DNA of 64,000 bases from the IMG/VR virus record IMGVR_UViG_3300031813_000003, positions 128,001-192,000 of that record. One strand, given 5' to 3'. The position numbers and the translations under genes were made by a program. This document shows positions 50,143 through 51,682 of the stretch, piece by piece. The notes under the pieces were generated by a model. It had not been told where the DNA came from and made no database searches. It was given only the letters and a program-made list of their open reading frames with translations. Origin of the DNA: a virus (taxonomy: Duplodnaviria > Caudoviricetes). Position 1 is the stretch's first letter; each line of letters begins with the position of its first letter.

Positions 50143-50217
50143 GCGCCTATAGTTCATTGGCAGAACAAGGCACTCTAAATGCTTGTGTAGTTGGTTCGAT
50201 CCTAACTAGGCGCACCA
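50143..50217 (+). tRNA. Amber suppressor tRNA (CTA)
   Basis: Clean cloverleaf, AGGCA-CTCTAAA-TGCTT, CCA end. Confidence 0.85.
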
Positions 50218-50263
50218 AATATGTATTTAAATATTCACACCAAACCTATAAAGGAGAATAACT

Positions 50264-50302
50264 ATGAAAAAGCTTTAGGTTAACCCAAAACACCCTCCAT
50301 AA
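50264..50302 (+). other. Mini-ORF MKKL(TAG)VNPKHPP(TAA)
   Basis: AAGGAG RBS; TAG at 50276-50278. Confidence 0.65.
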
Positions 50303-50368
50303 ACTTCTCACAATTATTGTACTAAGGAATTATCATAATCAACCTTAACCAATTAAAGGAGAAGTAAA

Positions 50369-50683
50369 ATGGAAACTTTATTCGAAACTAAAGAATCTTA
50401 CCTAAAAATGCGTAGTAATTTCAAGAAATGGTACAACACTGAAGACAATCGTAAAACCTTAACCGCAGCAGACTTTGCTTTGTATGCCTTGATAAGGAAC
50501 AAAGATTGGAGAAAGTGCTTCACTCCAAACTCAGACTTAAACAAAATCGAAGAAATTGAAAACATCATCAACAACAGAAAAACTTGCTACATCAATTTGA
50601 AACCTTATGGTACAACTGTAACTGAAGAAATGATCACAATTCTACGTAAACGTGGGATTGCAAAGTGGATGAATTTACTCTGA
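50369..50683 (+). CDS. Hypothetical protein in the suppressor/Pth operon
   Basis: AAGGAG RBS. Confidence 0.7.
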   Translation: METLFETKESYLKMRSNFKKWYNTEDNRKTLTAADFALYALIRNKDWRKCFTPNSDLNKIEEIENIINNRKTCYINLKPYGTTVTEEMITILRKRGIAKWMNLL

Positions 50684-51292
50684 TACCATTTTACAATTAT
50701 CAAAGTGATACCTGTTCATAACAGGTTTACCACCACTTTTATTACAATGTGGGCAAGTAACTATCTCTTTTTTTATATTCTTTTGAGATTTAAGTTTTTC
50801 TTTATGTTCATTTGAAAGGGGAGGTCTACCAATAACATATCCATTATCCAAATAATATTGCATTTTACTTTTATTAACTCTTTGTGTATCTTTAGTTATT
50901 TTGTTATAAAGCCATACCTTTGATGATATTTTTGTTGCAATGTTGTTTTTATGTGTTTCTGTTAGGGTTATCCTTTTTTTTCTAGTACCAATATTAGGAG
51001 AAATATTACCACCCGCTCCGCCATTTTTGATGTTATAAACATCAGACCTTTTTAAAAAGGTATCATCTACTAGATTAGATTCAGTTTCATATGCTGCTTG
51101 CTCAGTTTCAAAAATTGTTATTATTTCTTTTTTAAAGTTAGATGTACCATATTTTTTAACCGCAAGTTTTAAACGAAACCCTGATCCAAGATAATCATCA
51201 TATGGGTCTAATGTTTTATGAACTCCAATATATATTTTATTGTTTATTAAATTTGTTGTTTTATACAATGTAAATAACATAACTAACCTCAA
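50675..51292 (-). CDS. Seg-like GIY-YIG homing endonuclease, antisense
   Basis: LYKTTNLINNKIYIGVH, YLGSG, C-terminal CPHC...RYHFDNC. Confidence 0.9.
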   Translation of the reverse strand: MRLVMLFTLYKTTNLINNKIYIGVHKTLDPYDDYLGSGFRLKLAVKKYGTSNFKKEIITIFETEQAAYETESNLVDDTFLKRSDVYNIKNGGAGGNISPNIGTRKKRITLTETHKNNIATKISSKVWLYNKITKDTQRVNKSKMQYYLDNGYVIGRPPLSNEHKEKLKSQKNIKKEIVTCPHCNKSGGKPVMNRYHFDNCKMVSE

Positions 51293-51352
51293 ATAAAAAG
51301 TATTTTATACCTACGCATTTGTATTTATGTAAATACTTTAGGAGAAAGAAAA

Positions 51353-51682
51353 ATGGAATAGAAAGTTTACACATATGCATTTATAAGAAGAGATTTACCT
51401 ATTCACACACAATTAGTGCAAACGGCCCATGCAACATTGGAGTTAGGGCTACAGTTGAAAGAGGAAAAGAAACCGAAGGAAACGTCCTTTTTGATCCTTT
51501 TAGATGCTAAAGATCAAGACCATCTGAAAGAGATTGCATGTTACCTTGATGATCATAGCATCGAGCATCATCTATTCTTTGAACCAGACTTGCCTATTAA
51601 TGGGTTTACAGCTATATGCTCAGAACCATTGCCTCTGGAGAAAAGAAAACTTTTCAAAAAATTTAAATTGTGGAAAATATAA
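51353..51682 (+). CDS. Peptidyl-tRNA hydrolase 2-like protein with in-frame TAG at codon 3
   Basis: AGGAG RBS; ME*KVYTYAFIRRDLPIHTQLVQTAHA...FFEPD...TAI. Confidence 0.78.

What the first reader, a model, noticed from the sequence alone, without database searches (positions are those of the whole stretch)
50143..51682. Amber suppressor tRNA coupled to amber-gated ORFs, including a peptidyl-tRNA hydrolase
Seen: a clean tRNA with CUA anticodon. 46 nt later comes an RBS-led mini-ORF ATG AAA AAG CTT TAG GTT AAC CCA AAA CAC CCT CCA TAA. After one gene and an inserted endonuclease comes an RBS-led Pth2-like gene ATG GAA TAG AAA GTT..., whose conserved N-terminal strand (KVYTYAFIRRDL) needs read-through of codon 3. 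TAG is still a normal stop elsewhere (15938, 26866, 44616, 46857), so this is local recoding. Established: very short minigenes cause peptidyl-tRNA drop-off that Pth rescues. Inference: a read-through switch that makes Pth only when the suppressor outcompetes RF1, with the Pro-Pro-stop leader as a sensor.
Basis: partly seen in the sequence, partly recalled or inferred. Interest (0 to 1): 0.82.

Follow-up and report, generated by a model that had tools for sequence, protein, structure and literature searches.

The report
Amber-gated phage operon with own suppressor
A 216-kb lake phage that uses the normal genetic code puts UAG stop codons at the front of a two-gene operon, so the genes can probably be made only when the phage's own UAG-reading tRNA overrides the stop; this conserved design gives the unexplained suppressor tRNAs of many jumbo phages a target, but it has not been tested in the lab.

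Summary
The tRNA(CUA), the leader (UAG at codon 5, Pro-Pro-UAA end) and the UAG at codon 3 of a Pth2-fold gene are present and repeated in an independent assembly. The genome otherwise uses the standard code. Of 74 related phage loci, 63 carry such a gate, in a leader, in codons 2-7 of the Pth2-fold gene, or both. Both UGA-leader genomes have a tRNA(UCA). All 10 gated named phages have a tRNA(CUA); none was found in 2 ungated ones. 58 of 59 gates are followed by a purine. A predicted hairpin hides the next gene's start until a ribosome reaches the leader's end. That gene (104 aa, no known fold) is a fixed partner. Best reading: a switch set by suppressor tRNA competing with a release factor. 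The physiological input and the hydrolase activity are unshown; the canonical Pth2 catalytic motif is altered. I found no paper describing this; the XacN1 paper found no suppressor target, and I identify a candidate. This scan noted the same module in at least 13 genomes.

The parts
50143..50217 (+). Amber suppressor tRNA (anticodon CUA, A37-A38, G1-C72, A73, encoded CCA, short variable loop)
   Evidence: confirmed in independent assembly
50251..50256 (+). Shine-Dalgarno of the leader
50264..50302 (+). Leader ORF: four codons, gate TAG (50276-50278, followed by G), seven codons ending Pro-Pro, TAA
   Evidence: same design in about 30 related loci
50296..50373 (+). Predicted hairpin: 50303-50309 pairs with 50359-50365 (SD region) and 50296-50300 with the start codon 50369-50373 of the partner gene
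   Evidence: -17.8 kcal/mol, z -3.3; SD pairing 0.57 falls to 0.20 with a ribosome at the final stop. Prediction only.
50369..50683 (+). Partner gene, 104 aa, all-helical, no known family or fold; fixed companion of the Pth2-like gene
50675..51292 (-). Free-standing GIY-YIG homing endonuclease inserted between partner and Pth2-like gene; breaks the stop/start overlap seen in relatives
51294..51332 (+). Degenerate duplicate of the 5' end of the Pth2-like gene (TAA where the gene has TAG), probably a homing scar
   Evidence: interpretation is inference
51340..51344 (+). Shine-Dalgarno of the Pth2-like gene
51353..51682 (+). Pth2-fold gene, 109 codons, gate TAG at codon 3 (51359-51361, followed by A)

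Best explanation
A translational switch for a two-gene operon (partner + Pth2-fold protein) in a standard-code phage. The input is the contest at a UAG codon between the phage's own suppressor tRNA and host RF1 (RF2 in UGA variants). OFF: the ribosome terminates at leader codon 5, the hairpin keeps the partner's SD and AUG paired, and the Pth2-like gene stops at codon 3. ON: the suppressor reads the UAG; the ribosome moves seven codons on and dwells at Pro-Pro-UAA, covering the anti-SD strand, so the partner is translated; a second read-through at codon 3 gives the full Pth2-fold protein. In relatives the two genes overlap and the second gene is doubly gated; here the endonuclease insertion leaves each gene with its own gate. 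The products most likely act on tRNA 3' ends (release of peptidyl or otherwise blocked aminoacyl groups). Shown by sequence comparison: gates, matching tRNA, codon context, gene linkage, fold. Predicted: hairpin. Inferred: charging by a host synthetase (Lys is my guess from U35/A73, own knowledge of E. coli suppressors), pausing, hydrolase activity, purpose. My split for the purpose, given a switch: failing or inhibited termination 40%; readiness of the phage's own tRNA pool (timer) 30%; negative feedback on the suppressor 30%.
For: 63 of 74 loci in the tree carry a gate: 12 both, 30 in-gene only (some contigs too short to show a leader), 15 Pro-Pro leader only, 6 non-Pro-Pro leader. The gate is N-terminal rather than at a fixed domain position, and sits at the front of the whole HD-PTH2 fusion in three phages. 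Base after the gate is a purine in 58/59 versus 20/30 for ordinary TAG ends in this genome (Fisher p=5e-5, loci not independent). UGA leaders L013 and L020 both have tRNA(UCA). tRNA(CUA) confirmed in 10/10 gated named phages, 207 kb from the gene in Xoo-sp13, and not found in ungated RaK2 and Hallingskeid, which form one nested clade. Across 35 leaders SD pairing averages 0.79 with termination at the gate and 0.39 with a ribosome at the final stop; pairing to the stop region 0.61 versus 0.18 in shuffles. Pro-Pro is kept with varying third positions. Gate type changes many times on the tree while a gate is kept. When the Pth2-like gene carries the gate and comes first, the partner follows, often overlapping its stop. 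Fusions to an HD domain point to tRNA-end chemistry.
Against: No expression, proteomic or genetic data; the two RNA runs laid do not cover the module. Catalytic-motif positions of Pth2 are changed (Lys to Gln, Asp-Ala-Gly-x-Thr to Glu-Pro-Asp). Six leaders end without Pro-Pro, so a stall is not universal. The hairpin test passes at 5% in only 13 of 35 leaders taken singly (0.07 for this window). Eight loci show no gate, one with a tRNA(CUA) (L068). At least one further gate is followed by U (L102). A steady leak would look the same in sequence as a regulated switch. Absence of tRNA(CUA) in the two ungated phages rests on one pattern and is one evolutionary event.
Confidence: 0.66

Rival explanations
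1. Constitutive dimmer: suppressor plus stop codons simply hold the two proteins at a low fixed level (for instance because the hydrolase is toxic in excess), with no signal sensed.
For: Needs the same tRNA, gates and purine context. Double gates would multiply to a very low level. No input is identified.
Against: A weak SD would do this without a dedicated tRNA; SDs here are strong. Leader, hairpin and in-gene gates replace one another across the tree while dependence on read-through is kept.
Confidence: 0.15
2. Self/non-self lock or selfish module: the operon works only in cells that hold the matching suppressor, which keeps tRNA and genes together or restricts expression to infection by the same phage clade, without physiological sensing.
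For: Correlated loss of gate and tRNA; tRNA often within 1.5 kb of the operon; homing endonucleases flank the gene in the window, L001 and L005.
Against: tRNA and gene are far apart in Xoo-sp13 and XacN1. No toxin-antidote pair is evident. Suppressor acceptor stems are diverse, so there is no clade-specific key beyond the anticodon.
Confidence: 0.08
3. One reading: the minigenes sense peptidyl-tRNA drop-off, and Pth is induced to rescue it.
For: Minigenes and early codons do cause drop-off that Pth relieves (PMC8012679); gates sit at codons 2-7; the fold is Pth2.
Against: Sign problem: low Pth would sequester the suppressor and lower read-through (inference). Some leader gates lie at codon 10-12. 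Catalytic motif altered.
Confidence: 0.06
4. Early step or relic of genome-wide amber reassignment; the TAGs are tolerated nonsense changes under a general suppressor.
For: Suppressor gain before recoding is proposed for gut phages (bioRxiv 10.1101/2021.08.26.457843).
Against: Only two convincing in-frame TAGs in 216 kb, both in this operon; extensions past ordinary TAG stops match TAA stops (13% versus 14% at 50 codons or more); the same gene is gated in phages about 35-45% identical; no RF-1 family or Tyr/Trp synthetase gene found.
Confidence: 0.03
5. The Pth2-like genes are pseudogenes or start downstream of the TAG.
For: Databases annotate truncated products or nothing. XacN1 has an in-frame ATG a few codons after the TAG.
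Against: Frames are intact after the TAG and the strand behind it holds the invariant Arg12; GTG 51416 has no SD; the TAG recurs across distant clades.
Confidence: 0.02

Closest known systems
Archaeal/eukaryotic Pth2 (PDB 1WN2, 1Q7S, 2ZV3, 1XTY); PTH2 noted in jumbo phages by Iyer et al. 2021 (PMC7824862)
   Same: Same fold (Foldseek E 5e-6, TM 0.78); conserved Arg-x-Asp and Gln-x-x-His motifs; location among phage tRNA genes.
   Different: Motif Lys replaced by Gln and Asp-Ala-Gly-x-Thr by Glu-Pro-Asp; below Pfam and NCBIfam cut-offs. Resembles human PTRHD1 by my memory (not tested). The review mentions no suppressor or stop gate.
Leader-peptide translational attenuators and arrest peptides: RAPP family ApdA/ApdP (PMC10951233), TnaC, Pro-stop pausing (Hayes 2002, cited in PMC12856214)
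   Same: Short upstream ORF ending in prolines; ribosome position predicted to free a downstream SD. Some relatives have Arg-Gly/Ala/Ser-Pro-Pro.
   Different: The decision point is an internal stop codon read by a dedicated tRNA, upstream of the stall site. This window's leader has Lys-His-Pro-Pro, and six relatives lack Pro-Pro.
prfB (RF2) autoregulation by +1 frameshift at an early UGA (own knowledge)
   Same: An early in-frame stop measures release-factor activity and controls a translation-related gene.
   Different: Bypass there is a frameshift and the product is the release factor; here bypass is by a phage-encoded suppressor tRNA and the products are a Pth2-fold protein and an unknown partner.
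Stop-codon-recoded phages, codes 15 and 4 (Borges et al., bioRxiv 10.1101/2021.08.26.457843)
   Same: Phage suppressor tRNA; in-frame stops proposed to control expression timing.
   Different: There many late and lysis genes are recoded; here the genome is standard code and one operon is gated; that paper does not mention a hydrolase.
Pyrrolysine and selenocysteine recoding (own knowledge)
   Same: Dedicated tRNA reads a stop codon in a few genes.
   Different: There the residue is catalytic and needs its own synthetase or SelB/SECIS; here the codon position floats at the N-terminus and the tRNA is an ordinary type I body with A73.

Membership tests
Pth2 (PF01981, TIGR00283) | Pth2 alpha/beta fold | tested here: met
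   AF2 pLDDT 96.7 (TAG read as Gln); top Foldseek hits are Pth2 structures
Pth2 (PF01981, TIGR00283) | Score above curated family cut-off | tested here: not met
   Pfam 21.7 bits versus 23; no NCBIfam hit. Two fused relatives pass Pfam.
Pth2 (PF01981, TIGR00283) | Catalytic Lys / Asp / Thr motif (residue roles from own knowledge) | tested here: not met
   Aligned positions are Gln, Glu and no Thr; His kept
Pth2 (PF01981, TIGR00283) | Peptidyl-tRNA hydrolase activity | not testable with these tools
   needs assay
PTRHD1 / PTH2-like subfamily | Sequence membership of the subfamily | not tested
   resemblance recalled from memory; no PTRHD1 sequence was available from a tool
RAPP-type arrest peptides | Arg-Ala/Gly-Pro-Pro motif | tested here: not met
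   window leader has Lys-His-Pro-Pro then stop; motif present in some relatives
RAPP-type arrest peptides | Ribosome arrest shown by toeprint or structure | not testable with these tools
   needs experiment
Translational attenuator leaders | Downstream SD paired with sequence a leader ribosome would cover | tested here: met
   predicted; strong as a set, borderline for the window alone (shuffle fraction 0.07)
Pyrrolysine system | tRNA-Pyl body (G73, 3-nt variable loop, 6-bp anticodon stem; own knowledge) | tested here: not met
   A73, 5-bp stem, ordinary variable loop; ARAGORN's 'Pyl' label reflects only the anticodon
Amber-reassigned phages (code 15) | In-frame TAG in many genes; large gain in long ORFs under TAG read-through | tested here: not met

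The most novel reading that the evidence does not exclude
Large standard-code phages use a private suppressor tRNA as a live gauge of one host release factor (UAG for RF1, UGA for RF2) and switch on a two-protein tRNA/ribosome rescue unit, with a non-canonical Pth2-fold enzyme and a partner of new fold, when termination is blocked by a host defence or by the phage itself. This would imply an undescribed conflict fought at the release factors.
Probability: 0.27. Interest if true: 0.93.

Novelty: categorically new. Interest (0 to 1): 0.82.

Why it matters
Suppressor tRNAs in standard-code jumbo phages have had no known target: the XacN1 paper says none could be identified (PMC5852040) and the RsoM2USA paper only notes that UAG is abundant (PMC8504454). 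Here a specific candidate target is found in both phages and in GAP32, CBB, fHe-Yen9-03, ME3, Arash, Xoo-sp13 and CM1, where the gene is unannotated or truncated because gene callers stop at the TAG. That makes the question testable in cultured phages. If true it is a natural gene switch built from an orthogonal codon-tRNA pair, offers a route by which suppressor tRNAs are kept before genome-wide recoding, and points to an unstudied Pth2-fold subfamily (about 1,470 clusters at 50% identity) and a partner protein without a known fold.

Tried and rejected
Genome-wide recoding: rejected. Sequencing error: rejected. Pyl tRNA or Arg(UCU): rejected. Phage-encoded RF-1-family or Tyr/Trp synthetase genes: none found; other synthetases were not searched. 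Other amber-gated genes in this genome: none convincing; in-frame continuation after ordinary TAG stops is at background. Single-protein scan of viral contigs found nothing; one alignment was too diverse to scan. No homologue in GTDB genome contigs (close-relative patterns only). Partner protein: no Pfam, NCBIfam or PHROG family, atlas hits under 0.9, best PDB Z 4.1; this does not show a new fold. Promoter scan is at chance level (17 versus 13.3), so co-transcription of tRNA and leader is not shown. RNA runs cover only 49500-49793. Two papers on Pth2/PTRHD1 catalysis were not held, so residue roles rest on my own knowledge. Literature searches found no description of the module; subscription journals are mostly not covered. 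Host not determined.

Full report
Setting. The window is bases 128001-192000 of a 215,974-base virus record with a short terminal repeat and 34% GC; matching runs are lake and freshwater metagenomes. A tRNA array spans 39.6-50.2 kb and the tRNA(CUA) is its last member. The genome uses the standard code: reading TAG as sense adds few long ORFs, 30 of 359 crude gene calls end in TAG, and their in-frame extensions match those of TAA stops. No RF-1-family or Tyr/Trp synthetase gene was found. The host is unknown.

Observation. Contigs from another lake run cover the anticodon and both TAG codons with no differences. A scan of all RBS-ATG-stop minigenes leaves the leader at 50264 and the gene at 51353 as the only convincing amber-gated ORFs.

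Conservation. The nearest homologues are annotated short because gene callers skip the N-terminus. Their DNA shows the same TAG just before the first strand, and a leader with a TAG followed by a few codons and Pro-Pro-TAA. Wider searches gave 79 distinct loci, 68 clusters at 90% identity. Of 74 placed in a tree, 12 have both gates, 30 an in-gene TAG, 15 a Pro-Pro leader, 6 a shorter leader without Pro-Pro, 8 nothing I could detect, and 3 are cut short. Several of the 30 also have longer leaders with an internal Arg-x-Pro-Pro, and some are on contigs too short to show a leader. In-gene gates lie at codons 2-7, most at codon 3, and at a varying distance from the first conserved Tyr. In Xoo-sp13, XacN1 and CM1 the domain is fused behind an HD domain and the TAG is at codon 3-4 of the fusion. 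So position near the start matters, not the residue. Gate types change many times on the tree (short alignment, many weak forks).

Coupling to the tRNA. The two loci with UGA leaders lie in genomes with a tRNA(UCA). All ten gated named phage records have an ARAGORN-confirmed tRNA(CUA), in two cases about 200 kb from the gene; in the ungated RaK2 and Hallingskeid my pattern found none. These two form one clade nested among gated phages, so this is one loss. The base after the gate is A or G in 58 of 59 cases against 20 of 30 ordinary TAG ends in this genome (p=5e-5; one further exception; loci share ancestry). A 3' purine favours amber suppression in bacteria (own knowledge). The suppressors have diverse acceptor stems, mostly G1-C72 and A73, and nearly all keep A37-A38; charging by a host synthetase is inferred.

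What the leader controls. Earlier notes of this scan suggested an SD-hiding hairpin, which I then tested. In the window the bases just after the leader's TAA pair with the partner's SD region and the Pro codons pair with its AUG (-17.8 kcal/mol, z -3.3). Over 35 leaders, mean SD pairing is 0.79 with a ribosome at the gate and 0.39 with one at the final stop; pairing to the stop region is 0.61 against 0.18 in shuffles; 26 of 35 drop by more than 0.2, 13 pass at 5% singly, and the window scores 0.07. Pro-Pro is kept with varying third bases, which suggests selection on the peptide, but six leaders lack it, so ribosome position may matter more than a long stall.

The two products. The Pth2-like protein folds confidently (pLDDT 96.7) and matches Pth2 structures. 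Strand 1, which needs read-through, carries the invariant Arg12; the GTG at 51416 would remove it and has no SD. The motif Lys is Gln and the Asp-Ala-Gly-x-Thr motif is Glu-Pro-Asp, so hydrolase activity is open. HD-domain fusions suggest tRNA-end chemistry. The 104-aa gene is a conserved all-helical family with no clear structural match. It lies directly behind the leader and usually overlaps the Pth2-like start; where the gated Pth2-like gene comes first, it follows, often overlapping the stop. XacN1 ORF365 is a homologue (probability 94%). The unit under control is therefore the pair. In the window a GIY-YIG gene has been inserted between them and each gene has its own SD and gate.

Mechanism. 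Termination at the gates keeps both genes off; read-through by the phage tRNA opens the hairpin and completes the Pth2-fold protein. What raises read-through is not known. Three inputs have the right sign: loss of RF1 activity, build-up of mature charged phage tRNA, and feedback in which the products limit the suppressor. Damage to tRNAs or lack of Pth would lower read-through and so has the wrong sign for an induced rescue (inference). The gate is always a codon specific to one release factor, and the leader's final stop is never the same codon, which fits a release-factor gauge but does not prove it.

Comparison with what is known. Each part has a precedent: Pth2 in jumbo phages (PMC7824862), RAPP and Pro-stop arrest (PMC10951233), prfB autoregulation (own knowledge), recoded phages. 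I found no description of a suppressor-gated operon in a standard-code genome. The XacN1 paper states that no target of its suppressors could be identified. This scan has recorded the leader form in at least 13 genomes; those are unchecked AI notes and not independent support. From the excerpts I could read, this locus adds the in-gene gate, the double gate, the gate at the head of HD fusions, the partner on either side, and named cultured phages for testing.

Verdict. Observation confirmed; interpretation partly supported. That the stops are conserved gates read by the phage tRNA: about 0.9. That they form a regulated switch: about 0.66. Interest 0.82.

Noticed in passing
window 47376-47450: ARAGORN calls a tRNA with UUA anticodon, but the loop has G33 and U37 and there is no CCA; more likely a degenerate tRNA-like RNA than an ochre suppressor.
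   Followed up: partly
window 46198-47370 and L001 74-1372: The R2K ATP-grasp gene ends in TAG followed by A and is in frame with the next HNH gene in both close relatives; read-through would fuse them. In-frame continuation is at background rate genome-wide, so weak.
   Followed up: partly
window 51294-51332; L001 5296-5358; L005 380-1030: Antisense homing endonuclease genes sit beside the Pth2-like gene in three relatives, with duplicated fragments of its 5' or 3' end in two; the gene looks like a repeated homing target.
   Followed up: partly
window 39628-39701, 44788-44953: The phage tRNA-Tyr and two tRNA-Leu genes have short variable arms, unlike bacterial type II tRNAs, and several tRNAs have odd T-loops or long variable arms; no Tyr/Trp synthetase gene was found.
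   Followed up: no
window 47767-48276: Protein with two ribosomal L7/L12 C-terminal domain matches inside the tRNA region.
   Followed up: no
window 49456-49920 and 52260-52380: Repeated motif 'GCATACTTCTA' in non-coding DNA around a 721-aa TerD-domain gene (52383-54548); also in L001. Noted by another reader as a Y-RNA-like array (e1-5650881).
   Followed up: no
L032 3810-3884 (Salmonella phage Arash, OQ632216): A tRNA annotated as Phe has a CUA anticodon, and the gated gene is annotated only as a 50-aa fragment.
   Followed up: yes
L040, L060, L091, L131: Some phages carry two tandem CUA tRNAs; in L040, L060 and L091 one has A73 and the other G73, which may mean two different inserted amino acids.
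   Followed up: no
window 51316-51337: Short palindrome containing TAAATA on both strands between the endonuclease and Pth2-like starts; may be a late promoter for the endonuclease.
   Followed up: no
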